Assembly (NCBI GenBank): GCA_963514005.1
Contig: OY740805.1
Span: forward strand, 36,828,001 to 36,892,000
Origin: Raja brachyura
Lineage: Eukaryota
Length of the DNA stretch: 64,000 bases
Direction: 5' to 3'
The position numbers were made by a program, and so were the translations under genes. Each line of letters starts with the position of its first letter. The stretch's first letter is position 1. The notes under the pieces are model-generated. The model was not told the origin of the DNA, made no database searches, and saw only the letters and a program-made list of their open reading frames with translations. Positions 1 through 35,699 of this stretch are shown here, in pieces.

Positions 1-2267
1 TAGTTCAGTTTAGAGTTGTTTAGTGTAGGTTAGTGTAGTTTAGTTCAGTGTAGTTTAGTTTACTTTTGGTTATGTGAGTGCAATTTAGTTTATTGTAGTT
101 TAGTTTATTGTAGTTTAGTTTAGTTTACTTTAGTGTAGATTGGTTTAGTTTTGATAATGTGAGTGTAGTTTAGATTATTGTAGTTCAGTTTAGTGTAGTT
201 TAGTGCAGTTTAGTGTAGTTTAATGTAGTTTAGTTTAGTGTTGTTTATTGTAGTTTAGTTTAGTTTAGTGTTGTTTAATGTAGTTTAGTTTAGTTTACTG
301 TAGTTTAGTGTAGTTTAGTGTAGTTTAGCATAGTTTAGTTTAGTTTAGTTTCCTGTAGTTTAGTGTAGTTGACTGTAGTTTAGTTTAGTGTCGTTAGTGT
401 AGTTTGGTGTAGTTTAGTTTAGTGTAGATTATTGTAGTTTAGTTTAGTGAAGTTTAGTTTAGTGTAGTTTAGTTTAATTTTGTTTAGTTTAGATTAGTTA
501 GTGTAGTTTAGTCTAGTTTACTGTAGTTTAGATTAGTTTAGTGTAGTTTAGTGTTGTTTAGTTGATTGTAGTTTAGTGTAATTTGGTCCAGTTTAGTGTA
601 GTTTAGTGCAGTTTAGTTCAGTTTCGTGTAGTTTAGTGTAGTTTACTATAGTTTAGTTTAGTGTCATTTAGTTTAGTTTAGTGTAGTTTAGTGTAGTTTA
701 ATGTAGTTTAGTTTAGTTTACTGTAGTTTAGTTTAGTTTAGTGTAGTTTTGTGAAGTTTAGTTTATAGTTTAGTGGAGTTTAGTTTAGTTTACTTTAGTG
801 TAGTTTAGTGCAATTTTATGTAGTTTAGATTAGTTTAGTGTAGTGTAGTTTAGTTTAGTGTAGTTTAGTTTAGTTTAGTGCAGTTTAGTGCAGTATAGTT
901 TGTTGTAGTTTAGTGTAGTTTAGTGTAGTTTAGTTTTGTGACGTTTAGTTTAGTGTAGTTTAGTGTAGTTTTGTTTAATGTAATTTATTGTAGTGTAGTT
1001 TAGTATACTTTAGTGTAATTTAGTTTAGTGTAGTTTAATGTAGTTTAGTGTAGTTAAGTGCAGTTTTGTATACTTTAGTGTTGGTTAGTGTAGTTTGGTG
1101 TAGTTTGGTGTAGTCTGGTATACTTCAGTGTGATTTAGTGTAGTTTAATTTAGTTTAGTGTAGTGTAGTTTAGTGTAACTTTAGTTTAGTCTAGTGTTGT
1201 TTAGTTTAGTTTAGTTTAGTTTAGTGCAGTTTAGTGTAGTTTAGTTTAGTTTAGTTTAGTTTAGAGTTGTTTTGTGTAGATTAGTGCAGTTTAGTTTATT
1301 GTAGTTTAGTTTAGTTTAGTGTAGATTAGTTTAGTTTTGGTAATGTGAGTGTAGTTTAGTTTAGTGTAGTTTAGTGTAGTTTAATGTAGTTTAGTTTAGT
1401 TTACTGTAGTTTAGTTTAGTTTAGTGTAGTTTTGTGAAGTTTAGTTTATAGTTTAGTGTCGTTTAGTGTAGTTTACTGTAGTTTAGTTTCGTTTACTTTA
1501 GTGTAGTTTAGTGCAATTTTATGTAGTTTAGTGTAGTGTAGTGTAGTTTAGTTTAGTGCGGTTTAGTTTAGTGCAGTATAGTTTGGTGTAGTTTAGTGTA
1601 GTTTAGTGTAGTGTAGTTTTGTGACGTTTAGTTTAGTGTAGTTTAGTGTAGTTTTGTTTAGTGTAATTTATTGTAGTGTAGTTTAGTATACTTTAGTGTA
1701 ATTTAGTTTAGTGTAGTTTAATGTAGTTTAGTGTAGTTAAGTGCAGTTTTGTATACTTTAGTGTTGTTTAGTGGAGTTTAGTGTAGTTTGGTGTAGTCTG
1801 GTATACTTCAGTGTGATTTAGTGTAGTTTAGTTTAGTTTAGTGTAGTTTAGTGTAACTTTAGTTTAGTCTAGTGTTGTTTAGTTTAGTTTAGTGTAGTTT
1901 AGTGTAGTTTAGTTTAGTTTAGTTTAGAGTTGTTTTGTGTAGATTAGTGTAGTGTAGTTTAGTTTATTGTAGTTTAGTTTAGTTTAGTGTAGTTTAGTTT
2001 AGTTTTGGTAATGTGAGTGTAGTTTAGTTTGGTTTAGTGTTGTTTAGTGTAGTTTAGTTTTGTGTAGTTTTGTGTAGTTTTGTGTAGTTTAGAGTAGTTT
2101 GGTTTAGTGTTGTTTAGTGTAGTTTAGTTTTGTGTAGTTTTGTGTAGTTTTGTGTAGTTTAGAGTAGTTTGGTTTAGTGTAGTTTAGTGTAGTTTAGTTT
2201 TGTGTAGTTTTGTGTAGTTTAGAGTAGTTTGGTTTAGTGTTGTTTAGTGTAGTTTAGTTTAGTTTAG
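1..2267. repeat. (TAGTT/TAGTG)n pentamer satellite with higher-order repeats
   Basis: Continuous TTTAG/TGTAG pentamers. Rare variants recur at a 683-bp offset (gtgaag 751/1434, gtgacg 938/1621), and ~60-bp units occur at 2030-2250. Confidence 0.95.
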
Positions 2268-5200
2268 TTTTTTTTTGTTAGAAGTAAGTACAATAGTGTG
2301 GTACTTGAGTACCTAATACATACATACATATTTCCATTCTTGTGCAACTTCGTATTTTTTATTTAATAATAAAAGAACAGTGGAAGAAAAAAGAAATAAT
2401 GAGTGTCAGAATAGACAGACAAGCGAGTAGCAACAGATAGCAAAAGAAATAATGGACCTAGAAGAGAAGCTGAAAAGTTTGAAATAGAAGGAGAAAGTAA
2501 AGAAAAGAGAGATTAGGAGAGATCTACCTATTTCGTATTTTTGCCCATCTGTCACCCAGTTCTAAACCATTTAATTTCTAAGGTTGCACCATATGCTTGT
2601 AAAAAGTTGATAAAAGGAGACCAAGTCTCTGAGAATTGGTCTACTTTGCCTAGTAGGAGAAATCTCATTTCTTCAAGATGAAGCATTTCACAAATATTTG
2701 ACATCCACATTTTGAATGTTGGCATGGTTGCGTTTTTCCAAAATTTGAGTATAAGTTTTTTTGCTCTTATTAGACCGTAATTAAGAAAAGCTTCTTGGAA
2801 TATAGTTAGTTTACTTCCCTCTTCCATTGATCCAAAGATAATCAGTTCTGTATTGGGGTTCAATTTTGTGTTAAATAGTTTTGTAAAAATTCCAAAATTG
2901 ATACAGTTTTATACAAGAGACAAAGGAATGTGCTATCGTGGCATTTTGAGTTAGACATTTGTCACAGATGGGGGAAACATTTGAGAATATTTTATTCAGT
3001 CTAGTTTTAGAATAATATAATCTATGTAAAATTTTAAATTGAATTAGGTTGTCTCGCATTAATTGAATATTTATTTACATTTAATAATTTTTTTCCCCAT
3101 CTATCATTAGGAATTTCTATCAATAACTCGTGTTCCCAGTCCCTTCTAATTGCCTCTGTCGTTGGTGTTCCTATATTTAAAATTATATTATATAAGTAAG
3201 ATACTAAATTGCTTGATTCTGCCTTTCTATTCATTCCTTCCTCCAATAAATCTAGGGTTAGGGTTTGATATCCTTGTATATATTTCTTCAAATAATCTTG
3301 AACTTGAAGATATTTGAAATATTGATTATTTTTCAAATTATATTTTAGTTGTAATTGTTGGAATGATAAAAGTTTTCCCATATCATACATATCTCCCATT
3401 GTTTTAATTCCTAATCTTTCCCAATGGATAAACTTTTATCAATAATGGATGGTTTGAATGAGGGATTATTAGTTATTCGAGAAAGAAGCGATAATTTTCA
3501 TAATTTTAAAGTTAATTTTATTTGATTCCAAATTCGTATTATACTGTGAATAATTGGATTCTTCTTATAGATTATACTGTTCAGTTTCATCAGGGAAAGA
3601 AGCATCGCTCCTATATTATAAGGGGAACAATCCTCTTTCTTCATTCTTATCCAATCTACCTGTTGGGCAGAATTGTCCAACCAATAGATTATATTTTCAA
3701 TATTCACTGCTCAATAGTAGTACAATAAGTTAGGGAGTGTCAGTCCCCCTGATTCTTTTGATTTACACAAGTGTTTTTTCTTAATTCTATGTGATTTATC
3801 ATCCCATATGAAGTTTATAATACTAGAATCTAATTTTTTTAAGTTTTTTTTAGGTAAGTATATTGGCATTGATTGAAATAGGTACAGTATTTGTGGTAAG
3901 GAGATCATTTTTATCGCGTTTATTCTGCCTATTAAGGACATCGGCAGTGTTTTCCAGAATTTAATCAACCCATTTAATTTAGTTATTAAAGGCATATAGT
4001 TTGCATTGCGTAATGATTTATATTTCCTAGTAATTTGGATGCCCAAATACTTAAATTTTGAAGGGGCATTTCAACAGATGTATCGGCTCTTGAGGTTTTA
4101 TCGTCATAATTTTGCTTTTGTTCCAGTTTATTCTATATCCTGAAAAAGAACCAAATTCCTCTATTAAATTTAGTATATTTGGTGTGCTCTTTTGCGAATT
4201 AGTAATATATAATAATGTCGCCTGCATATAATGAAATTTTATTATTTGAGTGTTTGGTATTGTATCCATGAATATTCGGATGACTTCTTATATTTTCTGC
4301 TAAAAGCGCTATCTCTAGTGCAACTAGCAGAGGTGACAGTGCGCACCCCTGCCTATTGCCCCTTGCCAATTGGAATTTCGGGGTTAATATATTATAAGTC
4401 AGTATTCTAGCCGTCGGCTTATCATATAATAATTTTACCCATGAGGTAAAGTTATCTCCCATGTTAAATTTTTGCAATACTTTGAATAAATATTGCCATT
4501 CTACTTGATCAAAAGGTTTTTCTGCATCCAATGAGATAATTGCTAGGTCTTCTTCAGTATTATGTGAGTACTTTATATTAGACAGCCGTCTCAAATTGTT
4601 AAATGAGTATCTCTTTGGTATAAACCCAGTTTGATCCGGGTTTATTAGTTTGCTAACATATTTACTCAATCTTCTCGCTAGTGTCTTTGCTAATATTTTT
4701 TGATCTGTATTTAAGAGTGCAGTAGCTCTATATGAGCCTGGGTCTTCTAGATCTTTATCCTTTTTTGGTATAAGTGTAATAGTTGACTCAGTTAGTGTTT
4801 CTGGTAGTTTATTTTCTTTAAAAGCGTATATATATAAATCTTGCAAGTGTGGAGAAATTATCTCGTGGAATCTTTTATAGAATTCATTACCAAAGCCGTC
4901 CTGTTCTGGCGTTTTGCCATTCTTCCACAAACTTATTGTTTCTTCTATTTCCTGAAGTGTAATCTGAGCTCCTAATCCCTCTTGTTCCACCATATTTAAT
5001 TTTGGAAGATTACAATTGTCTAAGAAATTTGTAATTTGAGTATTATTTGCAGAGGTTTTTGATGTATATAAATTTTGATAATATTGAGCAAATCTTTTAT
5101 TTATATCTTTAGGTAATGTTAGTAATTCCCCTTTGTCTGATTTAATTTTAGTAATTGTATTTTCTGTTTCCCGTTTTTTCAGTCGGCGCGCTAAGAGTTT

Positions 5201-6860
5201 ATGTGGTTTATCACCAAATTCAAAATTTTCTTGTTTTGTAATTTGAAATAATCTTATTATTCTGGCTGATAAAATTGTATTTAATTTATATTTTAGTATT
5301 GTTATCTTATTGTGTTTATCTATAGTTGGTTCTTGAGCATTTTCTAAATCTAATTGTCTAATTTCTTGCTCTAACTGTAATTGTTCAGTATTATTCTTAT
5401 TATTTTGGAAAGCTTGATATGGGATTATAGTTCCTCTTATAAATGCCTTAAAAGTTTCCCATAATAAGGAGGGTGAACTATCTGGTGTGACATTTGTCTC
5501 AAAGAAGAATTTCATCTGCTCTTTTAAATATGTACAACCTTGTGAGTTGTTTAAGATTTGGGGGTTAAACCTCCAACACGATTTTTTATCAGGCATTCCT
5601 TCTAATTTTAAAGAGAAAGTTAACGGGGAATGATCAGAAATAATACTTTTGTGATATTTAGCATTATATGTGTATGGAATTAATTTTGTGTCCACTAAGA
5701 AATTATCAATACGTGAATATGTTTTATGTACCGTTGAATAAAATGAATATTCTCTACATACTGGGTTAGCGATCCTCCATACATCGGTCATATTGGTATT
5801 TTTCATGTATGTATTTAGGAGTTCACCAGTTTTAGATTTTATGTTAATCCTTTTGTGTTTTGCAGATTTATCCAAATATGGATCTAAAGCACAATTCAAA
5901 TTTTCCCCTATTACCACATTTTGATAGTTAAGTTCTGAAATTGTATCCAGAATTTTACTAAAAAATTGAGGGTTGTCAAAATTAGGAGCATAAATATTTA
6001 TCAAAGTAAGTGGAGTAGAATAAATTTATCCCGTGACCATGACGTACCTCCCCTCTTTTTCTGCTATGGTATTCTTTAATTTAAATGGTATACCTTTACG
6101 AATGATAATGGCCGTGCCTCTAGATTTAGAAGTAAATGAAGAGTAGTATATTTGCCCTATCCAATTTGCCTTCAGTCTTATCTGTGTTTGATATTTCAGA
6201 TGCATCTCTTGTAAGAAAATGACATCACTATTTAAAGCTTTTAATTGGGCAAAGATCTTAACCCTTTTAATTGGTTCATTAGCGCCCCTTATATTCCAAC
6301 TGCAGAACGTGATTCCTTCAGTTTTCTTTTGTTTATCGTCTTGCATTATGGATCATGTTAATACCTTTACTTCATATGGTGCAACCAAGAACCTCATTAC
6401 TCTAGGTGAGGGATGATCATCCCCAGCTATTAGATTTTGTTGGCATCTCCCCTTCAGAATAGACCTTGAAAAAGACCAGAAAGTGCAGAGTCGTGGAAAG
6501 ATAATTAACAAACAAAAAGTGATATTATAATATCCAAAAATAAAGATATTATAATTAAAAACAAACCACCAACAGGTGGTAGAAAAATTCTTATCGACTT
6601 CCGTAGATGTTTTTATATGTTTCGCTCTGCCCCCTTGACCAATTATTTATAAGTGGAAGAGAGAGGGATACAAATGTTAAAAAAAATATATATAAAATAA
6701 AACTCACTCCAATATATAGATTAGAAATGTATCTTCAAAGAGGAAAAACAAAATAAAAGAGAATTTCCAACATTAAGTATATACTTAGATATAACAGTGA
6801 TTATGTTAATTATATATCCATATCTATCGATATGCCAAGATCTATTACAATTAAGTCTCA
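2268..6860 (-). mobile_element. LINE-1 (L1 clade) element, ORF2 degenerate, no ORF1 recognised
   Basis: Minus-strand ORF pieces 6346->2552 give an APE endonuclease (SWNIRG, FLQEMHL, INIYAPN, SDHSP), an RT (GFIPKR, RQGCALSPLL, SLYAGD) and a C-terminal Cys/His region (CDKC...H...C). Several frameshifts and stops are present, with a short T-run (poly-A tail) at ~2268-2276. The 5' boundary is approximate. Confidence 0.9.
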
Positions 6861-8084
6861 AACTTTTGTATCAGACAACAGCAGGCCCCAAGGGGTTAAC
6901 CTTGGAACCTGCTGTTGTCCGACACAAAAGCCCGGATAACTTCCAAGTATACCGTGTTAAGAAAGGAACATCAGATGCTGCCAAATCGAGGGTACACAAA
7001 ATGCTGGAGAAACTCAGCGGGTGCAGCAGCATCTATGGAACGAAGGAGATAGGCAACGCTTCGGGCTGAAACCCTTCTTCAGACCGTTTTATACCTCTAA
7101 TTTCCCTCTCGCCTGACGGCGATTAGTCTGAAGAAGTGTCTCGCCCCGAAACGTCACCCTTTCCCCTTTCCCCTTTCCCCACAGATGCTGCCTGGCCTGC
7201 TGAGTTACTCCATCTATCTTCAGTGTAAATCAGTGCCTGCAGGTCCTTCCCACATGTAGATCTGCTCCACCGATATGTTCACCAATACTAACACACATAT
7301 GTCACTCACCACTCAGATCTATAATCCAGTCCAGTTTTAACATATAGTAACCATTAAATACTACCAATTCCAGACACCAGTTGGCAGTCGAGATAGACAA
7401 TAGACAATAGACAATAGACAATAGACAATAGACAATAGACAATAGGTGCAGGAGTAGGCCATTCGGCCCTTCGAGCCAGCACTGCCATTCAATGTGATCA
7501 TGGCTGATCATCCCCAATCAGTACCCCGTTCCTGCCTTCTCCCCATATCCCCTGACTCTGCTATCTTTAAGAGCTCTATCTAGCTCTCCCTTGTAAGTAT
7601 CCAGAGAACCTGCCTCCACCACCATCTGAGGCAGAGAATTCCACAGGCTCACCACTCTGTGTGTGAAAAAGTGTTTCCTCGTCTCCATTCTAAATGGCTC
7701 GCCCCTGATAAGCCACAGTGTTGTCTGCATGCTATGTAACTTTATTATATGCCAATAAACTCGTTGGATCTTTACATAGAAACATAGAAAGTAGGTGCAG
7801 GAGTAGGCCATTCGGCCCTTCGAGCCTGCACCGCCATTCAATATGATCATGGCTGATCATCCAACTGAGTATCCTGTACCTGCCTTCTCTCCATACCCCC
7901 TGATCCCTTTAGCCACAAGGGCCACATCTAACTCCCTCTTAAATATAGCCAATGAACTGGCCTCAACTACTTGCTGTGGCAGAGAATTCCACAGATTCAC
8001 CACTCTCTGTGTGCAAAATGATTTTCTCATCTCGGTCCTAAAAGACTTCCCCCTTATCCTTAGTATGGAGTATGTGTTAATAGC

Positions 8085-8191
8085 TGTCCCACTTGGGCGC
8101 AATTTGTGCGGCACCCCAGGATTTTGGGATGTACAAAATCTTCGCGCGCCACCTGCTTGACACGCAAATGACGCCCAAGTGCGACAGGCCC
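8085..8191. mobile_element. Short PIF/Harbinger-like MITE
   Basis: Inverted ends ctgtcccacttgggcg ... cgcccaagtgcgacaggccc, the same TIR family as 36412-36659. Confidence 0.65.
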
Positions 8192-8207
8192 TTATTTCAG
8201 AACTTAC

Positions 8208-8856
8208 GTACGACTGTGACTTCGATCCCATCTCCATGATACGTTCGCCCCAAGAAGAAATTAAGTCTGCAATAATACCTTCCTGTATCGTCGATTTTTA
8301 AGCCGCTGATTTCAGTTGATGCATGAATGATTCCAGGGGCTCCATTCTTCCGAACACGACCATGGTAGTCTTTGCAAACGGAATTGATGACTGCGTCTTT
8401 GTACCAGTTAATGGCTCCAGTCAATCTATTCTTGGAACCCCTTCTATTCGGACTGAAAGTGCAGTTCAGCAGAACCGTCCCCCCTTCAGTCGCAGTGACC
8501 CGGTTCCTCGTCTCTGTTCTAAATGGCTTACCCCTTATTCCTAAACTGTGTGTGGCCCCTGGTTCTGGACTCCCCCAACATCGGGAACATGTTTCTTGAC
8601 TCTGGCACGTCCAAACCCTTAATAATCCTATATGTTTCAATGAGATCCCCTCTCATCCTTCTAAAATCCAGAGTGTACAAGCCCAGCTGCTCCATTCTCT
8701 CAGCATGTGACAGTCCCGCCATCCCGGGAACTAACCTTGTAAACCTACGCTGCACTCCCTCAATAGCAAGAATGTCCTTCCTCAAATTAGGGGACCAAAA
8801 CTGACGGTCGGCGTGGTCTGGTAGGACCAGTTTTCCATGATGACGCATCGCCAAAA
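8208..8856 (-). pseudogene. Ig V-set (VJ-joined) exon, NKp30/NCR3-like, interrupted by a CR1 fragment
   Basis: YQTTPTV (8823-8803) and VTATEGGTVLLNCTF..GAINWYKD..DDTGRYYCRLNFFLGRTYHGDGIEVTVV (8499-8208) carry the canonical C, W, DxxxYxC and a GxG J-like strand. The exon ends in a phase-1 C|GTAAGT donor at 8208/8207, with a candidate acceptor at 8857. Confidence 0.8.
8504..8803 (-). mobile_element. Internal CR1 LINE fragment inserted in the V exon
   Basis: Encodes [10 protein letters not shown]...FRTETR, as in other CR1 copies in the window, and lacks the 3' tail. Confidence 0.9.
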
Positions 8857-8914
8857 CTTTTTTAAAAAGGATGTATTGTAAATTGCAAAGTCGTTTATTT
8901 CAGGAGTTGCTTAC

Positions 8915-8960
8915 AAAAGAGGAAGGTGACACAACATAAGAGGGCAAATCGGTGGGAGAT
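8915..8960 (-). pseudogene. Putative leader (signal peptide) exon of the V gene, start codon apparently mutated (ATC)
   Basis: 46 nt reading (I/M)SHRFALLCCVTFLF + T|GTAAGC, a phase-1 donor. There is an in-frame upstream TGA and no ATG. The intron to the V exon would be 58 nt. Confidence 0.55.
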
Positions 8961-9988
8961 TGTCTCTTCCCCGCACGGCTCCCGGGGTCAAGGAGATACA
9001 TTGGAAGAGCAGGCTAGAAGGTGAACGAGAATATAACCCCGCAAGAGAGGTTTTCACAGACGCGCGCACCCTTGGCCAGAAGATCCAGGAGAGGCACTTC
9101 AGTCCAACGAGACTTCAGCTTCTCTGCATTCGGTCGAGTGGACAGTGGAAGAAGCCTTAGAGTTCCGCCAGTTAGTTCCAAAAGACAATAGACAATAGGT
9201 GCAGGAGTAGGCCATTCGGCCCTCGAGCCAGCACCGCCATTCAATGTGATCATGGCTGATCATCCCCAATCATTGCCCCGTTCCTGCCTACTCCCCATAT
9301 CCCCTGACTCCGCTATTTTTAAGAGCCCTATCTAGCACTCTCTTGAACGTATCCAGAGAACCGGCCTCTGCCGTCCTGTGAGTCAGAGAATTCCACAGAT
9401 TCAACACTCTCTGTGAGAAAAAGTTAGGAAAGGAACTGCAGATGCTTGGTTTAAACCGAAGGAGGGCGCAAAAAAGCTGGAGTAACTCGGCAGGACAGGC
9501 AGCATCTCTGGAGAGAAGGAACGAGTGACATTTCGGGTTGTGTCTGGAGAAGGGTCTTAACCCGAAATGTTACCCATTCCTTCCTTCCCTCCGGAGACGC
9601 TGCCTGTCCCGCTAAGTTACTCCAGCTTTTTTTGCATCTATTCTTTCCAGAGATGCTGCCTGATCCACCGAATTAATCCAGCTCATTAAACACCACCTGC
9701 AGTTCTTCGTTTCCCCAGCTAGAGGGCGGCACACATTTGGACAAAATGCTGTCCATTCACTGAGAAAGGTTGCTCATTTTCAGCAGAAATTAGAACACAC
9801 ACACTCACACATAAAAGACGTCTAACTAATTGCATTGCATTGCCAAACAAGGCAACAGGTCGTGGTTAAATATAGAGCATTATTAACAGATCCTGCACTG
9901 CGCGTGAGTGGTAAACATCTTGCATAGGCAAGAGAGACAATTCTCTACTTCTTGTGATTGGCCTCATCCTGCAACTATTTTCTGTTTC

Positions 9989-13346: not shown

Positions 13347-13457
13347 TTAATACTTTTTATTGATTAGGATGCAGCAAAAGCTGAGAGCTGCGCCGAGTTT
13401 CGCCACTTCTGTGCACGAGGCGGGTATCAGCGAGTAATCCGGCAGCTTCTGAAAAGC
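13347..13457 (-). CDS. DDAH2: DDAH2-like, last coding exon (exon 6)
   Basis: ccag|GCT acceptor; translates AFQKLPDYSLIPASCTEVAKLGAALSFCCILINKKY* (111 nt) and aligns with the DDAH C-terminus. It is not in the ORF track. Confidence 0.9.
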   Translation of the reverse strand, partial: AFQKLPDYSLIPASCTEVAKLGAALSFCCILINKKY

Positions 13458-23236: not shown

Positions 23237-23380
23237 CACAGAACTTTCCGGAAACTCCTCGGCCGACCGGTGTACGAGTGTGTCGGCCTTGTTCCCGACC
23301 TTCACATAGATGCAGTTAGCGGCGGCGTCATCAGGCACGCTGAGCTTCTCGTAGTCAAAGTCCGTCAGCTGCTCCATGGC
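23237..23380 (-). CDS. DDAH2: DDAH2-like exon 5
   Basis: cag|GCC ... GTG|gtaagt, 144 nt: AMEQLTDFDYEKLSVPDDAAANCIYVKVGNKADTLVHRSAEEFPESSV. Confidence 0.93.
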
Positions 23381-24430: not shown

Positions 24431-24673
24431 TGAATTATATTCGCATATTCTGTTGTGCTGCAGCAAGTAAGACTTTAATTGTCGCGTCCGGGACATATGA
24501 CAATAAAACATTCTTGGCTCTTGAATTTTGACATCTCTTGTTTCCCTTTCCCCTGGCTCTCACTGAAGTAGGGTCTTGGCCCGAAACATCACCCATTCTT
24601 TTTCTCCAGAGATGCTGCCTGTCCCGCTGAGTTACTCCAGCTATTTGTGTCTACCCAAGTCAAGCTGCCTTAC

Positions 24674-24793
24674 CTTGATGGTCTTCTGAGCGACATCACT
24701 GCTGCCCACGACAATGGTGCTGGGACCGCCCATGCTGCAGAAGCTCTTCAAGTGATGAGGTTCTGGGACGTGTACCACAGAGACTGTGAAGTC
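24674..24793 (-). CDS. DDAH2: DDAH2-like exon 4
   Basis: tag|GAC ... AAG|gtaagg, 120 nt: DFTVSVVHVPEPHHLKSFCSMGGPSTIVVGSSDVAQKTIK, containing the catalytic-His motif HLKSFCSM. Confidence 0.93.
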
Positions 24794-24989
24794 CTAGAGA
24801 TAACAAACAGATATGATCAGTCTTGGATCAGATCAGTTTCAGACATTTCAGAGCTAAATGCAGTCAAGTTGGGAAAAGAAGAAGTACAACGGGGTCTGGG
24901 GGTCCTTGTTCATCGGTCAATGAAAGTAAGCATGCAGGTACAGCAGGCAGTGAAGAAAGCGAATGGCATGTTGGCCTTCATAGCAAGAG

Positions 24990-26145
24990 CAACTGGTGGA
25001 CAAACTGGGGGACTTGGGACTTCCACACTCCACCTGCATGTGGATAAATAGCTTCCTGTCGGGCCGCAGCCAGAGAGTCAGAATGGGCCTTCACACATCC
25101 ACGGCCCTCAGCCTCAGTACCGGCTCTCCACAGGGCTGCGTGCTGAGCCCCCTGCTTTACACCATCTACACACATGACTGCACCTCCGCCCACCACAGCA
25201 ACACCATTGTCAAATTTGCAGATGACACTACGGTGGTGGGGCTCATCTCCGGGGGGGGGAGGGGGGGGGGGGGGCGAGTACGCCTATCGGGATGAGGTGG
25301 AGCAGCTGACAGTGTGGTGTGGAGAAAATAACCTGCTCCTGAACACCTTAAAGACCAAGGAGACAATAATAGACTTCAGGAATAACAAAACGGACATGGT
25401 ACCACTAATCATCAGAGGGGACTGTGTGGAGAGGTGGCGGATTTCCGCTTCCTGGGAATCCATATTGAGGAGGACCTGACATGGAGCGTGAACACCTCTG
25501 CGCTGCTGAAAAAGGTCCAGCACAGACTGCACTTCCTGAGGGTGCTCAGGAAGAATAACATCACACAGAAACTGCTGCTGTCCTTTTATCGGTGCTCCAT
25601 CGAGAGCATCCTAACATACTGTGTATGCGTGTGGTACACCAGCTGCACAGCAGCTCAGAGGAAAGCGCTCCAGAGGGCCATTGACAACACCCAGAGGATT
25701 GTCGGCTGCCCTCTCCTTGCCTTGGAGGACTTACACAGTTCCCGCTGCATCAAAAAATCCCAGAATATTATAAAGGACATTTCCCACCCCGGACACTCCC
25801 TGTTTGAACTGTTGCCGTCAGGCAGACGGTACAGATCTACAAGGACAAGGAAAAACAGACTTAAAAACAGTTTTTACCCCACTGCTATAAAGGCACTAAA
25901 TGTAGCCGCCAAGGAACGCGGGGACTAAGGGACTGTGGTTGGTACACTGTGAAATCGACAGAAGGATGTAGGGTTGGGTGTTTATGCGTGCTGTTTTCAT
26001 ATTTCATATTTATTTTAGTTGTTTATCTTTTTTAATATATTATCTTGTATGTATCGTTAGCTTTTATGGTTTGAATGGTGCACTGACTGGTTGACATTTT
26101 TTAATTTCGTTGTACATGGTTCATGTTACAATGACAATAAAAAAA
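24990..26145 (+). mobile_element. Rex1/Babar LINE 3' portion
   Basis: TGSPQGCVLSPLLY..THDC..IVKFADDTTVVGLI, FLGIHI..DLTWS, FYRCSIESILTY, RLKNSFYP. Frameshifted at a poly-G tract; the 3' UTR ends atgacaataaa. Confidence 0.88.
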
Positions 26146-26368
26146 TCACTACTGAGTTGAGCATAGAAGCAAAGAGGACCTTCTGCAGTTGTACAAGGCC
26201 CTAGTGAGACCACACCTGGAGTATTGTGTGCAGTTTTGGTCCCCTAATTTGTGGAAGGACATTCTTGCTATTGAGGGAGTGCAGCGTAGGTTTACAAGGT
26301 TAATTCCCGGGATGGCGGGACTGTCATACGCCAAGAGAATGGAGCGGCTGGGCTTGTACACTCTGGAG

Positions 26369-27378
26369 CAGTGACGTGCGGTGAGGTCAATGGCTGGGGA
26401 GGCACTGGCTTCTACCCCATCCTAACTTAGTTGTGTGTGTGTGTGTTAGTTGTCTGTGCGTGATGTGTTTGGGAGGAGAGGAGAGAAGGGAGGGAGGGAG
26501 GGAACGGAGGAAGGAGAGAAGGGAAAAGAGAGAGAGGAAAGAGGGAAGGAATGAGAGAAGGGAGGGAGGGAAGAAGGGAAGGGAGGGAGAGAAGGGAAGG
26601 AGAGAAGGGAGGGAGAGGGCTGGCGGCGGGAGTGGATGCCGGGCTCCCAAGCCGAGAGTAGATAACGCCACCGTGGGACCCAATTGGGAGCTCCCAGCGG
26701 CCCAGAGCCTCCGAATCGGCCACGACAAATCAACGAATGAACAAACCAGTCAGCGCTGGACGCAGTGGAACCCAGTGCTGCGCCGCCGCTGCTGAAGCTG
26801 GCTAATGTGAAGGGAGAGTGAGGTAGCGTCAATTACGTGGGCTCAGCCTACGTAATTGACGCTCGCTCTCCCTCCACTGGGCTCAGGACACGCCCCCTTG
26901 TGAGGCAGATGTGGTCGCTGCCTCCCCTAGAGCTTTTTCTGTGCACCTTTATGATGAGACCAGTGAGTACAAATTTAATATAGTTATATGTGAAATAATT
27001 TACCTGGACTATGGAAGGTGAGAACATGTAATGGGGTTCACAAGGGGTTTACACACATTACATTGGTGACACACATGGAGATAGTAACAGGCACATGCTT
27101 ATTGCCCGCGCTCCATGCAGTTTCTGAGGGGTTGCACAATCCAAGGGGAGGCTCGTCGCTGCCTCACCTCTCATCTCTTCATGAATTTGCAGCTATTTTG
27201 ACTATAAAAATGATTAGATTCATATAAAAAGGACATTTATAACACAGATCAGTGGAAAAATCTTTATATTTATTTTATTTTATTATTATTTTACTTTACT
27301 TTTCTTAACAGCTATTTTCGTTGGAAGTATGACAGGTGAGGCTCTGCCTCCCCTGCCCCCCCTGCCCGCACGTCCCTG
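26369..27378. mobile_element. Non-autonomous hAT DNA transposon inserted in a CR1
   Basis: TIRs CAGTGACGTGCGG / CCGCACGTCCCTG and a perfect 8-bp TSD CTCTGGAG (26361-26368, 27379-27386). Confidence 0.85.
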
Positions 27379-27803
27379 CTCTGGAGTTTAGAAGGATGAG
27401 AGGGGATCGTATTGAAACATATACGATTATTAAGGGTTTGGACACGCTAGAGGCAGGAAACATACTTGGCGAATAAAGTGCGATTCTGATTCTGAGATGG
27501 TGCATTAATCGAAGGTAGACAAAAAGCTGGAGAAACTCAGCGGGTGAGGCAGCATCTATGGAGAGAAGGAATGGGTGACGTTTCGGGTCAAGGGTCTACA
27601 CCCGAAACGTCACCCATTCCTTCTCTCCATAGATGCTGCCTCACCCGCTGAGTTTCTCCGGCTTTTTGCCCACCTTTAAACAATCATAGTTAAGTTTAGT
27701 TTAGAGACACAGCGTGGACACAGGCCCTTCGGCCCAGCGATTCTCCGCCGACCCGCGATCACCTGGACGCTAGTTCAATCCCACACACACGAGCGACAAT
27801 TTA

Positions 27804-27862
27804 CAGACTCAATTTCTGGTCTCCAGCTGGAGGCGTGGGTTCGAATCCCACCTCTGACACCA
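27804..27862 (+). pseudogene. Reverse-transcribed 3' two-thirds of mature tRNA-Leu(CAA), with CCA
   Basis: CAGACT-CAA-TTTCTGGTCTCCAGCTGGAGGCGTGGGTTCGAATCCCACCTCTGACA-CCA: anticodon arm, long variable arm, T-arm, acceptor 3' strand and CCA. The 5' part (D-arm/A-box) is missing. Confidence 0.88.
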
Positions 27863-28040
27863 TGTTGGTTTTTAAGTCCTTGGAATAATAAAGACCTCAC
27901 ACCATGTCAGGTTATACACTGTTTATTTAGAATAAACAACTACAAGCTCTCACTTGCGAGTTTACTTCAGACTGACGAGTGCAGTAAACCGCGACGTTAA
28001 TAAGCTAATGGGCGTAACTACAAAAGCATGACTCATAACA
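27863..28040 (-). mobile_element. Solo LTR (Gypsy-like), immediately followed by a tRNA-Leu PBS
   Basis: Minus strand reads TGTT...AACA (178 bp) with AATAAA at 27927-27922, then directly TGGTGTCAGAGGTGGGAT. Confidence 0.72.
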
Positions 28041-28251
28041 TGAGCCACTAATTTACACCAATTAACCAACGTACCTGCACGTCTTTGGAATGCGGGAGCG
28101 CGCGGTCACAGGGAGAACATGCGAACCCATAGTCAGGATCGAACCCGGTGAGGCAGCAACTCTACTGCTGCGCCATAATCGGGGGGGGGAGGTGGGGAGG
28201 GGGGGGGGGAGGTGAGGGAGGGGGGAGGAATATTTTTGCAGCAAACCTCAC

Positions 28252-28325
28252 CTTGAAGGCGTCGGCGACAAATTCGGCCCCCCTGCGATTGGTCCATTTC
28301 GAGATCCCGACAAAGAACTCGCGCC
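28252..28325 (-). CDS. DDAH2: DDAH2-like exon 3
   Basis: cag|GG ... AAG|gtgagg, 74 nt: (G)[29 protein letters not shown] is the DDAH2-type motif. Confidence 0.93.
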
Positions 28326-28559
28326 CTGGTGTAGAATCCGATTGGTCGGGAAGTGCGTGGGATAGAAGAGGGAAAATATGTCAGGAAAGATCTGCAGGTT
28401 TTAAATCGAAGACGGACACAAAATGCTGGAGCAAGTCAGGCAGCATCTCTGGCGAAAGAAGGAATGGTTGACATTTGGGGTTGAGACCCTTGTTCAGACC
28501 ACTTCAGACTCCTCCTCCCATTCCCGCACTGACCTTTCTGTCCTGGGCCTCCTCCATTG

Positions 28560-29135
28560 TCAAAGTCAAAAGTCAAACAAACTTTATCGTCATTTAGAAA
28601 TACATTGATATATGCAGTTCCAAACGACATTACGTTGCATTTGGCTCCCTGTGCAACACGATCAATTAACAGAAGGATAGACATGGATAAAATGGATAAA
28701 AAGGATAAAAGGATAAATAGACAATGGTGGCAGCCCATTACATGGCATTCAGGAGTCTGATGGCTCGTGGAAAGAAGCTGTTGCAGAACCTTGATGTTCT
28801 GCTCCTTATGCTGCGATATCTTTTGCCCGAGGGCAGCAGAGTGAACAGTCCGTGATGGAGATGTGTGGGGTCTTTTATAATACTGCTGGCCTTAGACACG
28901 CAACGTTTGGTCGCAATATCCCCGATTGAGGGGAGGGAGGTCCCGATGATTTTTTCCGCTGTCCTCACCACTCTCTGCACGGACTTCCAGTCAGAGGCTT
29001 TACAGTCCCCAAACCAGACAGAGATACAGCTGGTCAAAATACTCCCTATGGTGCCCCTGTAGAAAGTAGTGAGGATGGGATGGGGGAGGTGAGCTCTTCT
29101 CATCCGGCGCAGAAAGTGCAACCGCTGCTGCGCTC
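28560..29135 (-). mobile_element. Rex1/Babar LINE 3' fragment
   Basis: HFLRRMRRA..FYRGTIGSILTSCISVWFG..LLPSGKRYRS..NSFFPRAIRLLN with a (TTTGAC) tail. Confidence 0.85.
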
Positions 29136-30293
29136 AACTGTTGATGAGTGAGGTCCAGCACAAATTTGAGGAACAGCACCTGATATTTCGCTTGGGCAGC
29201 TTATACACCCCAGCGGTATGAACATTGAATTCTCTAACTTCAAATAGCCCTTACTTTCTCTCTCTCTCCATCCCGTCCCCCTTCCCAGTTCTCCCACCAA
29301 TCTTACTGTCTCCGCCAACATTCTATCTCTGTCCCGCCCAGTCCCCTGACATCAGTTTGAAGAAGGGTCTCGACCCGAAACGTCACCCATTCCTTCTCTC
29401 CGGAGATGCTGCCTGTCCCGCTGAGTTACTCCAGCATTTTGTGTCTTTCTGGGGAAAAATATATATATGGGATTTGTAGGAAGCAACTGCAGATGCTGGT
29501 TTACACCGAAGATAGACACAAAGTGCTGGAGTAGCCCAACGGGACAGGCATCAACTCTGAAGGAAAGGAATGGATGACGTTTCAGGTCGAGTCCCTTCTT
29601 CAGTTCCAATAAAATTGCCACCCATTCCTTCTCACCAGAGATGCTGCCTGTCCCGCTGAGTTACTCCAGAAATCACCCATTCCTTCTCACCAGAGATGCT
29701 GCCTGTCCCGCAGAGTTACTCCAGATTGTCTGGTGAAGAGTTTCGACCAAAAACGCCGCCTATTTCCTTCGCTGCAAAGATGCTTTCTCGCCCGCTGAGT
29801 TTCTCCAGCATTNNNNNNNNNNNNNNNNNNNNNNNNNNNNNNNNNNNNNNNNNNNNNNNNNNNNNNNNNNNNNNNNNNNNNNNNNNNNNNNNNNNNNNNN
29901 NNNNNNNNNNNNNNNNNNNNNNNNNNNNNNNNNNNNNNNNNNNNNNNNNNNNNNNNNNNTTTTTTCTCGTTTATTATCTTGGTAACAGTGTAATATGTTT
30001 ACATTATAATAAGGGGTCGGCCATTTTGAACGGAGACGAGGAAACACTTTTTTCACACAGAAAGTTGTGAGTCTGTGGAATTCTCTGCCTCAGAGGGCGG
30101 TGGAGGCCGGTTCTCTGGATACTTTCAAGAGAGAGCTGGATAGGGCTCTTAAAGATAGCAGAGTCGGGGGATATGGGGAGAACGCAGGAACGGGGTACTG
30201 ATTGGGGATGATCAGCCATGATCACATTGAATGGTGGTGCTGGCTCAAAGGGCCGAATGGCCTACTCCTGCACCTATTGTCTGTTGTCTACAT

Positions 30294-30551
30294 CAAGGGT
30301 GGGGAACCTGCGGCCTTCTAGGCCTTTGAATGAATCCAAATTTTGTAGAACAAATCCATTTGTTTTTATTAATATGCTTTTGTTCGTCTTTTATTATTTT
30401 TATTTTAATCTTAAAATGAACGTATTTTAAATACTTAACAGAAGATTCAACTAAATAATCCTATAATTAATTGAACTCTCTTGGATGCGGCCTTATTAGA
30501 TTACAGCTAACTTAATGCGGCCTTCCGACATGAAAAGGTTCCCCACCCCTG
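30294..30551. mobile_element. hAT/Charlie-like MITE
   Basis: TIR CAAGGGTGGGGAACCT / AGGTTCCCCACCCCTG and an 8-bp TSD GTCTACAT on both sides. Confidence 0.85.
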
Positions 30552-30904
30552 GTCTACATATTCTGTTGTGCTGCTGCAAGTAAGAATTTCATTGTTATAT
30601 TCATTTATATTGGTTATGTGTTGAAATCACTGCTAGACTGGACAAGCAGCATTAACTAGTGAAACCAGTCAACACAAGTATCGGTGGCATGGTGGCATAG
30701 TGGTCGAGTTGGGGGAGGAGGGGAGGAGGGGAGGAGGGGGGGAGGGGAGTCAGTCTCAGTCCGTTTCACGACAGAAGGGGGAGGAGTTGAAAACTTTGAT
30801 ACGGGACAGTCTTGCAGAGCTGTACGCAAATTATGTGCCTGGTGCAGGTGATGATAAAGAAACCATTGACCATTGAACCAAAGTTAGAATCGATAATGTT
30901 TTAA

Positions 30905-31542
30905 AGAAGGAACTGCAGATGCTGGAGAATCGAGGGTACACAAAAAGCTGGAGAAACTCAGCAGGCGCAGCAGCATCTAAGGAGCGAAGGATATAGGCGA
31001 CGTTTTGGGTCGAGACCCTTCTTCAGACTGGTCAGGGATCAGGAAAACGAGAGATATAGATGGTGATGTGGAGGGATAAAGAACAATGAATGAAAGATAT
31101 GCAAAAAAGTATTGATGATAAAGGAAACAGGCCATTGTAAGCTGTTTGTAGTGTGAAAATGAGAAAATGAGGGCTTAAACATTGAATTTTCTCAATTCTG
31201 TTAACCCAGATTGCCTCCTCCCCCTTCCCACCTCTCCCTCAGCCCTCGGGCCCTGACATTCCTTCTCCATCTCCCCCCCCCCCCCCCCCCCCCCACACCC
31301 AAGTCGCACTAGCTTCTCATTTTCACACTACAAACAGCTTACAATGGCCTGTTTCCTTTATCATCAATACTTTTTTGCATATCTTTCATTCATTGTTCTT
31401 TATCTCTCCACATCACTGTCTATATCTCTCGTTTCCCTGATCCATGACCAGTCTGAAGAAGGGTCTCGACCCGAAACGTCGCCTATCTCCTTCGCTCCTT
31501 AGATGCTGCTGCACCCGCTGAGTTTCTCCAGCTTTTTGTGTA
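30905..31542. mobile_element. Penelope-like inverted pLTR pair
   Basis: ~230-bp inverted arms at 30937-31166 and 31314-31542, each carrying the CTGAAGA..GAAAC motif. Confidence 0.8.
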
Positions 31543-31577
31543 ATCCTTAGAATCAATAATGCTAGGGTGGGGTTTAA

Positions 31578-32486
31578 CGGTACCGGGACGTGGCGCCGAT
31601 GGACGAGAAGCCGAAGCAAAGTGGAAGCCAAATAGTGGAATGGAAACAAAGCCGAAACACCAACTAACCGAGGGCAGGACGCCTAAAACCAACTAACTGA
31701 AAGGACGGGACGCCTAAAAGCAAACTCGCCGAATGGCTGCTCTGCCGAAACATCACCTACCCAAAAGGCCGCCCTGCCGAAACGCCACCTACCCAAAAGG
31801 CGGCGTTGCCTACAAGCCAACGAACCGACTGCCGTTCAACAGAAAAGTCAAATAATGGACATGACGTTGCCGGGGGACGGGACCTGTCAGCGATTGGTCC
31901 AGACCCCCGCGTCCATCTGGGTTAACATCTCCACCGGCGGGATGGTGGGGTTCATTTTCCCACACAAGCCATAGGTGCCTGGGCAATTGGAACCCGAGCG
32001 CCAAGTTGAACGCGGCCGAAGGTGCGCATCCCTCGGGACAGCCCCCACTCTCCCACGGCAACCCTCCGCCTCGTCTCCCCCGTTCGGCCAGACTGTGACG
32101 GCCTGTGGGTCGGGTGGAGTGGAGGTGTGGGACAATATTCATGCCTACACAGTGATGTGTTGGACGCGGGGGTCTGGACAAATCGCTGACAATTCCCCCC
32201 CCCCCCCCCCCCCCCCGGCATAGTCATGTCCATTATTTGACTTTTCTGTTGAGCGCCCATTTGGTTCGTTGGGTTGTAGGCGACACCACGTACAGGCAGG
32301 TGGCGTTTTGGCAGAGCAGCCATTCGGTCAGTTTGCCTTTAGGCGACACAGCCTTTTGGTCAGTTTGCATTTAGGCATCCCGCCCTTTCGGTTAGTTGGC
32401 TTTTAAGCGTCCCAACCTTTCCGTTATTTGGCTTGCACTTCTTTGCTTCGGCTTCTGGTTCATCTGCGCCACGTCCGCACACGGTG
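31578..32486. mobile_element. Foldback-like element with long imperfect TIRs made of sub-repeats
   Basis: Left arm ~31578-31880 is inverted relative to ~32215-32480. Arms contain gccgaa/gcctaaa sub-repeats, and GTTTAAC flanks both ends. Confidence 0.65.
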
Positions 32487-32499
32487 TTTAACTTGCTCA

Positions 32500-34280
32500 G
32501 GAAGATCTGAAGCTCAAAACATCGCAATCAACACCAAAATAGGCATCTTTAACTCAAATGTGAAACAGGTGACGCTGTATGGATCAGAGACATGCAAAAC
32601 AACAAAATACCCCACAAACAGGCTGCAAACATTCACTAACACCTGCCTTATGAGAATACTCAACATCTGGTGGAAATACAAAGTAAGCAAAGCTATTTAC
32701 AATATACATCAATAATTTGGATGAAGGGGTTCAAAGTAACATTAGCAAATTTGCAGATGACACAAAGCTGGGTGGCAGTGTGAACTGTGAGGAGGATGTT
32801 ATGAGAATGCAGGGTGACTTGGACAGGATGGGGGAGTGGGCAGATGCATGGCATGTGAAGTGTAATGCGGATAAATGTGAGGTTATCCACTTTGGTAGCA
32901 AAAAATAGGAAGGCAGATTACTATCTAAATAACGTCATGTTGGGAAAAAGGGAAGTACAACGGGATCTGGGGGTCCTTGTTCATCAGTCTATGTAAGTAA
33001 GCATGCAGGTACAGCAGGTAGTGAAGAAAGCGAATGGCATGTTGGCCTTTATACACGAGGAATCGAATATAGGAGCAAAGAGGTCTTTCTGCAGTTGTAC
33101 AGAGCCCCAGTGAGACCACACCTGTAGTATTGTGTGCTGTTTTGGTCCCCTAATTTGAGGAAGGACATTCTTGCTATTGAGGGAATTCAGTGAAGGTTTA
33201 CATGGTTAATTCCCGGGATGGCTGGACTGTCATATGCTGAGAGAATGGAGCGGCTGGGCTTGCACACTCTGGAGTTTAGAAGGATGAGAGGGTATATCAT
33301 TGAAACATATAAGATTGTTAAGGGTTTGGACACGCTAGAGGCAGGAAACATGTTCCCGATGTTTGGAGAGTCCAGAACCATGGGCCACAGTTTTAGAATA
33401 AGGAGTAAGCCATTTAGAACGGAGTTGAGGAAACACATTTTCACACAGAGAGTTGTGAGTCTGTGGAATTCTCTGCCTCAGAGGGCGGTGGAGGCAGGTT
33501 CTCTGGATGCTTTCAAGAGAGAGCTAGATAGGGCTCTTAAAAATAGCGGAGTCAGGGGATATGGAGAGAAGGCAGGAACGGGGTACTGATTGGGGATGAT
33601 CAGCCATGCTCACATTGAATAGCGGTGCTGGCTACTGCTGCACCTATTGTCTATTGTCTATTGTCTATTGACCTGCGGAAAAGAACAAGCCAGGAGCCCA
33701 TTGACTTACAAATCCAAAGGAGAAAATGGAGTTCGATTGGACACACCCTCAGGAAACCTGCCACAAGCATCACCCGGCAAGCCCTGAAATAGAATCCCCA
33801 AAGGAAAAAGGAAAAGAGGTCGCCCCAGGAACAGCTGGAGAAACATAGAAACATAGAAAATAGGTACAGGAGTAGGCCATTCGGCCCTCCGTGCCTGCAC
33901 TGCCATTCAATATGATCATGGCTGATCATCCAACTCAGTATCCTATACCTGCCTTCTCTCCATATCCCCTGATCCCCTTAGCCACAAGGGCCACATGTGA
34001 CTCCCTCTTAAATATAGCCAATGAACTGGCCTCAACTACCTTCTGTGGCAGAGAATTCCACAGATTCACCACTCTCTGTGTGAAAAATGTTTTTCTCATC
34101 TTGGTCCTAAAAGATTTCCCCCTTATCCTTCTAAGGTGTCCAGAGAAGAGGTGGCCAGAAGTGTCTGAGAGTGGGCTCAACGGGGGAGATCTCGATAGAA
34201 CTGCCAACAACCGAGTGAGGTGGAGGTCATTTGTCAATGGTCTATGCTCCCCAGAGGAGCAAAGGGGTTTAAGAAGAGGA
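32500..34280 (+). mobile_element. RTE-clade LINE 3' part split by two CR1 insertions
   Basis: IFNSNVKQVTLYGSET..RLQTF..RILNIWW (32500-32690), RRKW..IGHTLRK..NPQGKRKRGRP (33670-33840), [13 protein letters not shown] (34135-34280). CR1s lie at 32692-33670 (+) and 33841-34132 (-). Confidence 0.8.
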
Positions 34281-34400
34281 AGATTGAACCAAAGTGCATT
34301 AAATCGGAACAGGAAGAGGTGGGGGCGGGGGGGAGACAAAGAGGAGAAGACGCAAAAAATGAAAAATAAAATGAAAATTCTGGTAAAGCCATGGTTTTAC

Positions 34401-34500
34401 CGGTGAACAAGACGTCGCTGCCGTCTAGTGTAGCGGTCTCATCTGTCACCTCCAGCACTCGTAGCTTCAACTCCTGTAGTATGCTCTTCACTGTGTCCAC
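34401..34500 (-). CDS. DDAH2: DDAH2-like exon 2
   Basis: ttcag|GTG ... ACC G|gtaaaa, 100 nt: [33 protein letters not shown](G). The phase matches exon 3. Confidence 0.93.
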
Positions 34501-35699
34501 CTGAAACATAAATTGGTGTCAACACATGTAACGAGGTACACTGAAAAGCTTTTCTTTAGGTTCGTTTAGCGATACAGTGCGGAAACAGGCCCTTCGGCCC
34601 ACCGGGTCCCTGCCGGCCAGCGATCCCTGCACATTAACACTATCCTACACCTACTGGAGACCACACCTGGGGTATTGTGTGCAGTTTTGCTCTCCTAATT
34701 TGAGGAAGGACATTCTTACTATTGAGGGAGTGCAGCGTAGGTTCACAAGGTTAATTCGCGGGAAGGCGGGACTGTCATATGCTGAGAGAATGCAGCGGCT
34801 GGGCTTGTATTCGCTGGAATTTAGAAGGATGAGAGGGCATCTCATTGAAACATATAAGATTGTTACGGGTTTGGACGCTAGAGGCAGGAAACATGTTCCC
34901 GATGCAGGGGGAGTCCAGAACCAGGGGCCACACAGTTTAAAATTCACTGGTATTTAAGCTTGTATTCACTGGAATTTAGAAGAATGAGAGGATATCTTAT
35001 AGAAACATATAAAATTCTTAAGGGATTATTTAGCAGAGAAACAGGCCCTTCGCCCCACCGGGTCCGCACCGACCAGCGATCCCTGCACATTAACATTATC
35101 CTACACCCACTAGGGACAATTTTTTTACATTTACCAAGCCAATTAACCTACAAACCCTGCACGTCTTTGGAGTGTGGGAGGAAACCGAAGATGTCGGAGA
35201 AAACCCACGCAAGTCAAGGGGAGAACGTGCAAACTCCGTACAGACAGCACCCGTAGTCGGGATAGAAGCCGGGTCTCCGGCGCTGTGAGGCAGCAGCTCT
35301 ACTGTTGCCTGACCCGCTGAGTTACTCCAGCACTTAGTGCCCATCTGCAATTTAAAGCCATCGATCGCTTCATTTTAAATCCCTGCAGGCTTGCGAGTTT
35401 GTAGGTTAATTGTCACTGGTGCAGTGAGAAAGTGGAACTCGAGTGAACACGGGTGATCGAAGGTCAGTGTGGACTCAGGGCACATGCTCCACGCTGCATC
35501 TCCAAACTCAGCTGAAAGCACAGAGAAATCTCCCTTGGCAGGAAGCCTCACTGCAGAGGGAGGAAATGATACACAGATGTGCATGTTCACCACAAACAGA
35601 TGGGGCCCCGGTCAAAGGTCGGGGAAACAATCTGCAAGAGGGAATACGAAGGGAAAGAAAAATGCTGGAGAGAGAGCTGAGGACTAGGAGCATAGAAAC

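What the first reader, a model, noticed from the sequence alone, without database searches (positions are those of the whole stretch)
8208..8960. Hidden germline-joined VJ Ig gene (NKp30/NCR3-like) that can be reassembled across a CR1 insertion
Seen: removing 8500-8802 joins YQTTPTV to TATEGGTVLLNC and restores the Q-to-first-Cys spacing of 17 typical of V domains. The exon includes a J-like GDG-x-x-VTV strand with no RSS and a phase-1 donor. A 46-nt hydrophobic leader exon lies 58 nt upstream. Known: NKp30 and Xenopus XMIV are MHC-linked, non-rearranging VJ-type IgSF genes considered related to antigen-receptor precursors; GAINWYKDAV resembles NKp30 GSVTWFRDEV. Inference: a pseudogenised member of an elasmobranch NKp30-like or other MHC-linked V family. 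No TM or C exon was found; it may be displaced by the L1 or lie beyond position 1.
Basis: partly seen in the sequence, partly recalled or inferred. Interest (0 to 1): 0.75.

Follow-up and report, generated by a model that had tools for sequence, protein, structure and literature searches.

The report
Broken NKp30-like gene beside DDAH2
An unsplit antibody-like V exon, interrupted by a repeat fragment and lying under 5 kb from the DDAH2 gene, is likely a dead copy from the NKp30-like immune-receptor cluster already mapped to the shark and ray MHC, so it is ordinary.

Summary
The V exon is real. The minus strand at 8499-8208 encodes a V-set domain with a J-like last strand, a phase-1 donor and no exact RSS motif. 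Its closest single-domain relatives are elasmobranch leader-V-TM proteins at 40-52% identity, several annotated NCR3-like. Their profile finds human NKp30 as the best single-domain PDB match.

Corrections: the cut giving Q-to-Cys 17 is 8500-8805, not 8500-8802. The N-terminal piece is only weakly family-like. The proposed leader has no ATG, splices out of frame and does not resemble family leaders. No TM or tail exon is in the window. 'Germline-joined' is the wrong term; it is a never-split VJ exon. Contigs of two other organisms carry the same repeat junction, so the lesion is old.

Verdict: a likely pseudogene in a published family. Interest 0.2.

The parts
8208..8499 (-). 3' part of the unsplit VJ exon (from just after the first strand through the J-like strand), open frame, ends at a phase-1 donor
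8202..8207 (-). GTAAGT splice donor; read-through meets a stop after three codons
8496..8499 (.). 4-nt duplication, copy on the exon's 3' side
8500..8503 (.). 4 filler bases matching neither the repeat consensus nor the exon
   Evidence: loose-end consensus before 8504
8504..8803 (-). Internal LINE fragment cut at both ends, no 3' tail; three stops in the V frame (the label CR1 ORF2 is recalled, no repeat library was on hand)
8802..8805 (.). 4-nt duplication, copy on the 5' side, overlapping the repeat edge by 2 nt
8806..8856 (-). Candidate 5' piece of the V exon: Q at the family spacing, otherwise weakly family-like
8915..8960 (-).
13347..13457 (-). DDAH2 last coding exon, the synteny anchor
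23237..23380 (-). DDAH2 exon used for the orthology test (89% to sawfish DDAH2, 54-60% to amphibian and teleost proteins named DDAH1)
24665..34503 (-). Three further DDAH2 exons near 24793-24665, 28326-28252 and 34503-34396

Best explanation
This is an unsplit V exon, interrupted by a LINE fragment and lying 3' of DDAH2, that is likely a dead paralogue from the elasmobranch NCR3 (NKp30-like) receptor cluster of the MHC class III region. Shown: the domain, the interruption, the closest relatives and the neighbour gene. Inferred: the living ancestor was a leader-V-TM receptor like its paralogues, which come in an activating form (Lys at the start of the TM, short tail) and an inhibitory form (Tyr-motif tail); which form this copy had cannot be told. 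Inferred: a 300-nt internal LINE piece entered the start of the exon with a 4-nt duplication and 4 filler bases, more like a break-repair patch than a normal tailed insertion, before this organism split from at least two relatives. The exon has since decayed: this lineage lost three codons of the family's CxxC loop and several consensus residues. It would make no protein now.
For:: of 51 hits at E<=0.001, the nine best single-stretch hits (E 2.5e-17 to 1.7e-8, 40-52%) are all elasmobranch leader-V-TM proteins; 4 of the 10 looked up are named NCR3-like (3 elasmobranch, 1 frog), 6 uncharacterized; the family profile scores human NKp30 at 63.5 bits in one domain (E 2e-16); the next single-domain entry is V-NAR at 49.7; the entries ranked above NKp30 are multi-domain sums; the window falls in an 18-row group with all 17 elasmobranch single-V or two-V domains among 44 rows; five DDAH exons; the tested one is DDAH2. 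In five species the DDAH hit and V-family hits lie on contigs of equal length, and two bamboo-shark models carry locus tags two apart. (PMC10751288 supplement): NCR3 rows lie 3' of DDAH2 in white shark (5 rows), sawfish (3 rows, the first 4.2 kb away) and catshark (1 of 2 rows, 225 kb away); contigs of organisms C and D run from the exon 28 and 15 bases into the repeat, as does one from a second sample of organism A. B, C and D each keep 9 nt that give a CxxC loop (a CxxC after the Trp motif in 9 of 16 family rows) and keep family residues at several columns; 8 of 21 listed substitutions are synonymous, against 24-29% expected if neutral (P 0.10-0.25), so no purifying selection is shown.
Against: The window V alone did not list NKp30 among its best 60 PDB hits, nor did a sawfish paralogue at E<=1e-6; only the profile does. 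The ESM Atlas named CD33-like, nectin, CD22 and PD-1 clusters at 0.92-0.93 and no NKp30 cluster. The fold searches do not discriminate: NKp30 is rank 10 by Foldseek and tied at Z 8.2 (rmsd 3.1, 90 aligned) by VIA-align. The 18-row group has only 89/52 support, and the tree holds no human NKp30, Ig or TCR row. The top hit by summed score is a multi-V ray protein at 29%. The exon is on the same strand as DDAH2, while the nearest NCR3 in sawfish and white shark is on the opposite strand. The 3' part has no stop among the listed differences in any of four organisms, and one column (78) runs the other way, the window keeping the family-like residue. The substitution list for organism D may be incomplete (45 rows not shown).
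Confidence: 0.85

Rival explanations
1. Same NCR3-family pseudogene, but the join is chance: a deletion removed the LINE's 3' end together with the gene's true leader and first strand, and 8806-8960 is unrelated DNA. This is a variant of the best explanation, not an alternative family.
For: The repeat lacks its 3' tail. The upstream piece lacks the invariant Pro and scores no better than repeat-coded residues. The ten residues before Q are not family-like in frame (58% of random 10-mers score as well; best shifted frame 7%, one of 7 offsets tried). No family-type leader lies between the exon and DDAH2.
Against: A 4-nt duplication flanks the piece, and the cut it defines puts Q at the spacing seen in 15 of 15 relatives. 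The codon at the Pro position is one base from a Pro codon (sequence). My rough estimate for both coincidences by chance is under 1%.
Confidence: 0.25
2. The exon belongs to another MHC-linked V family (G6B-like, TIGIT-like or PRARP-like), and the NCR3 labels are automatic names.
For: Names in the family vary: 2 of 18 hits are called TIGIT-like, others pIgR-like or uncharacterized. The inhibitory-tail forms differ from human NKp30. The Atlas named other families. That human G6B lies next to DDAH2 is recalled, from no call.
Against: NKp30 is the best single-domain PDB match of the profile over the whole domain. The authors of PMC10751288 marked the genes 3' of DDAH2 as NCR3 in three species.
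Confidence: 0.08
3. The exon is still used: a transcript would splice into a cryptic phase-1 acceptor near the end of the repeat, take its first strand from repeat-coded residues and, reading through the donor to the nearby stop, give a soluble single-V decoy.
For: The frame is open from within the repeat to the stop at 8200. The repeat-coded six residues score as well as the native candidate. No stop is listed in four organisms.
Against: That open frame has no Met before the exon. This lineage lost the CxxC codons and consensus residues. No purifying selection is shown.
Confidence: 0.04
4. It is a germline-joined Ig V or a UrIg-type antigen-receptor relic.
For: V-set fold with a J-like strand; Ig and TCR V domains fill the structure lists.
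Against: Closest relatives are V-TM proteins without C domains. Single Ig, TCR and V-NAR domains score at most 49.7 bits against 63.5 for NKp30. In white shark UrIg lies about 6 Mb from DDAH2.
Confidence: 0.02

Closest known systems
Elasmobranch NCR3 (NKp30-like) cluster 3' of DDAH2; e.g. XP_078271940.1 (skate, 52%), XP_072920818.1 (stingray, 49%), sawfish LOC127586088/55/56
   Same: Unsplit VJ exon, Q-to-Cys 17 if joined, shared Trp motif, CxxC loop in relatives B, C and D, position 3' of DDAH2.
   Different: Interrupted by a LINE piece, no valid leader, no TM or tail exon in the window, three CxxC-loop codons lost, same strand as DDAH2 where the nearest sawfish and white shark copies are opposite.
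Human NKp30 (NCR3; PDB 6yjp, 3pv6, 3noi)
   Same: Best single-domain match of the family profile; single IgV and MHC class III location (PMC6514059, passages).
   Different: NKp30 has Arg in the TM; the ray family has Lys-TM and Tyr-tail forms. Ligand binding untested.
Mouse Ncr3 pseudogene
   Same: A dead NCR3 copy in the MHC class III region (PMC6514059, passage).
   Different: Different lineage; here intact paralogues exist in related species, so a copy is lost rather than, as far as tested, the family.
UrIg and UrIg2 (PMC12227049)
   Same: Nonrearranging VJ exon; UrIg is MHC-linked.
   Different: UrIg has three C1 domains and is secreted; that paper uses NCR3 as the more distant root.

Membership tests
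Elasmobranch NCR3/NKp30 family | Single unsplit VJ exon with J-like strand and no RSS | tested here: met
   (RSS search was for exact consensus motifs only)
Elasmobranch NCR3/NKp30 family | V sequence closest to NCR3-type domains | tested here: met
   single-sequence searches alone did not list NKp30 and tree support is 89/52
Elasmobranch NCR3/NKp30 family | Position in MHC class III, 3' of DDAH2 | tested here: met
   against the gene tables; no other MHC gene was found in the window
Elasmobranch NCR3/NKp30 family | Family-type leader exon in frame with the V exon (a feature of intact members; its absence fits a pseudogene) | tested here: inconclusive
Elasmobranch NCR3/NKp30 family | TM exon with a charged residue or a Tyr-motif tail | tested here: inconclusive
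   best window scores 2.1 and 4.2 bits against 32-107 and 63-192 for members left out in turn; only 8.2 kb lie downstream in the window and no genome was held
Elasmobranch NCR3/NKp30 family | Binding to B7H6 | not testable with these tools
   needs a bench assay on an intact paralogue
Germline-joined shark Ig V or UrIg | V closest to Ig, TCR or UrIg V domains | tested here: not met
   closest relatives are V-TM proteins; Ig and TCR V score below NKp30; UrIg itself was not compared
Germline-joined shark Ig V or UrIg | C1 exons downstream | not tested
   no C1 profile was run on the window; translations of the unique stretches were only read by eye
SIRP, siglec, NITR, G6B, CD28/CTLA4 | V closest to these families | tested here: inconclusive
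   none among the best 60 PDB matches of the profile or the 20 of 51 hits named; the Atlas listed CD33-like and CD22-like clusters at 0.93
Canonical LINE insertion by target-primed reverse transcription | Intact 3' end with tail, flanked by a target duplication | tested here: not met
   4-nt duplication present but the piece stops inside the element and is followed by 4 filler bases

The most novel reading that the evidence does not exclude
The repeat fragment, fixed in several related species, has been co-opted: it supplies an acceptor and the first strand of the domain, and read-through of the donor ends the protein after the V domain, giving a secreted NKp30-like decoy for B7H6 in skates.
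Probability: 0.04. Interest if true: 0.6.

Novelty: new member of a known kind. Interest (0 to 1): 0.2.

Why it matters
It adds one dead copy to a known cluster and shows birth-and-death turnover of NCR3 paralogues beside DDAH2 in batoids. The shared repeat junction could serve as a phylogenetic marker. It does not bear on the RAG-invasion precursor beyond what is published: NCR3 is already cited as an MHC-linked unsplit VJ gene and placed further from Ig and TCR than UrIg (PMC12227049).

Tried and rejected
No genome was held for this window, so paralogues and exons beyond position 1 could not be searched. The word-index protein search with the exon alone, longer proteins only, gave 0 of 116 candidates at E<=0.001; the full HMMER scan then found the family. 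Sequencing runs: no RNA holder listed among 13 runs, which says nothing on expression. The four runs laid gave almost no cover on 8815-9180 and no listed joint skipping the repeat (109 joints not shown); neither is used as evidence. A second look at further runs could not be made, so splicing and an empty site stay untested. Structure prediction (mean pLDDT 71.9) and two fold searches showed a generic V fold only. TM, tail and leader profiles found nothing in the window. The other AG at 8910 is in phase 1 but would give 30 residues before Q against about 10 in the family. No Rfam match. Three look-ups in earlier findings returned nothing. Kinlein et al. 2021 (shark NCR3 family) was seen only as a title in reference lists; it may already describe such pseudogenes. 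Six literature searches listed no title on this broken copy; I read the listings, not all papers.

Full report
The observation. On the minus strand, 8499-8208 reads as a V-set domain without its first strand (Pfam V-set, E 2.9e-7). It ends in a J-like strand and a phase-1 GTAAGT donor at 8207-8202, and no exact RSS heptamer or nonamer lies within 8001-9200. Directly 5' of it, 8504-8803 matches 38 other places in the window, the best at 93%, and puts three stops in the V frame. The label CR1 is recalled; no repeat library was on hand. The piece is internal to the element, has no 3' tail, and is followed by four filler bases. A 4-nt duplication sits at 8496-8499 and 8802-8805.

What it is related to. 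The full HMMER scan gave 51 hits at E<=0.001. The first by summed score is a multi-V ray protein at 29% identity. The nine best single-stretch hits are elasmobranch proteins at 40-52% identity. Of 10 looked up, 4 are named NCR3-like and 6 uncharacterized; 31 of the 51 hits were never named. These proteins are leader-V-TM and come in two forms, one with Lys at the start of the TM and a short tail, one with Tyr motifs in a long tail. A profile of nine of them plus the window exon scores human NKp30 at 63.5 bits in a single domain over its whole length. The next single-domain entry is V-NAR at 49.7, and the entries above NKp30 are multi-domain sums. Against this: single-sequence searches did not list NKp30, the Atlas named CD33-like, nectin, CD22 and PD-1 clusters, and fold searches of the model (pLDDT 71.9) gave a generic V fold with NKp30 among ties. 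A tree of 44 domains put the exon among all 17 elasmobranch single-V or two-V domains with modest support, 89/52; it held no human NKp30, Ig or TCR row and at most two domains per protein.

Five exons of a DDAH gene lie on the same strand between 34503 and 13347. The tested exon is 89% identical to sawfish DDAH2 and 54-60% to amphibian and teleost proteins named DDAH1. Several shark hits carry the automatic name DDAH1-like; the sawfish, stingray and caecilian names and the identity gap point to DDAH2. Its stop is 4.8 kb from the V exon. In five species the DDAH hit lies on a contig of the same length as V-family hits. The supplement of PMC10751288 lists NCR3 genes 3' of DDAH2 on the MHC chromosome in white shark (5 rows), sawfish (3 rows, the first 4.2 kb away) and catshark (1 of 2 rows, 225 kb away). 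The nearest copy in sawfish and white shark is on the opposite strand, unlike here, so one-to-one orthology is not shown. The DDAH2 and V hits make the host a batoid, likely a skate (inference).

The 5' reconstruction is the weak part. All 15 family members tested have Q 17 residues before the first Cys and Pro two after the Q. The window's upstream piece has the Q but not the Pro; it scores 5.07 against 5.4 for the repeat-coded residues that adjoin the exon, and 4.7% of random 5-mers do as well. Together with the 4-nt duplication I still favour the join, at about 0.7, over a deletion that removed the true 5' end. The proposed leader starts with ATC, has no in-frame ATG, meets a phase-0 acceptor from a phase-1 donor, and scores -10.6 where true leaders score 28-32. 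It could be a heavily decayed leader with a later frameshift, but nothing here shows that. No TM or tail exon of either form is in the window; downstream lie repeats, a decayed L1-like element at about 2283-6862 and a satellite to position 1.

Age and decay. Twelve of 13 listed runs from four coded organisms hold part of the exon; I laid 4 of them. Contigs of organisms C and D run from the exon 28 and 15 bases into the repeat, and one from a second sample of organism A runs 22 bases in, so the junction is real and predates these splits (about 95% identity). B, C and D each keep nine bases that the window lacks, giving a CxxC loop; a CxxC follows the Trp motif in 9 of 16 family rows. They also keep family residues at columns 62, 66 and 92, though at column 78 the window is the more family-like. 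Of 21 listed substitutions 8 are synonymous, against 24-29% expected if neutral (P 0.10-0.25); the list for D may be incomplete. No stop is listed, which is unsurprising for so few changes. This fits neutral decay but does not prove it.

How it most likely worked and failed. By its relatives, the intact gene was likely a single-V NK-type receptor signalling either through an ITAM adaptor by a charged TM residue, as human NKp30 does with Arg (PMC6514059, passages), or through an inhibitory tail (inference). A LINE fragment was likely captured at the start of the V exon, cutting the frame, and the copy has decayed while paralogues persist in related species.

Comparison with what is known. NCR3 is cited as an MHC-linked nonrearranging VJ exon and as more distant from Ig and TCR than UrIg (PMC12227049: abstract, passages and introduction). 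PMC10751288 was seen as passages and supplement rows. PMC12272517 and PMC10450919 were seen as passages only and gave the citation of Kinlein et al. 2021 on shark NCR3 genes, whose text and supplements I did not see and which may already list pseudogenes. Six searches listed no title on this copy.

Verdict. A new but dead member of a known family at its known place. Interest 0.2. The boldest reading not excluded, a repeat-assisted secreted decoy, I put at 0.04.

Noticed in passing
window 13347-34503, minus strand: DDAH2 coding exons 2-6; the first coding exon (about 100 residues) was not found and may lie in an N gap or beyond the window.
   Followed up: partly
P0056/P0059 (sawfish) and P0054, P0055, P0057, P0060 (Mobula): Activating and inhibitory forms share nearly identical V domains within a species, as in paired receptors; in sawfish one NCR3 model lies inside another, so gene conversion or alternative TM exons may explain it.
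   Followed up: no
P0001, P0005 and related multi-V proteins: Multi-V proteins with J-like strands in ray and horn shark lie on contigs of the same length as single-V family members; frog multi-V models are named NCR3.
   Followed up: partly
window 8275-8330, run X6: Organism B shows two versions of the exon at depths 19 and 105, which may mean extra copies.
   Followed up: no
window 2283-6862, minus strand: Decayed, nearly full L1-like element with endonuclease and reverse transcriptase frames, single in this window (label recalled).
   Followed up: no
window 1-2270: AT-rich satellite of 5-nt-based units with a 45-nt higher period.
   Followed up: no
window 24984-25925 and 28741-29133: Fragments of another non-LTR retrotransposon family with reverse transcriptase motifs.
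   Followed up: no
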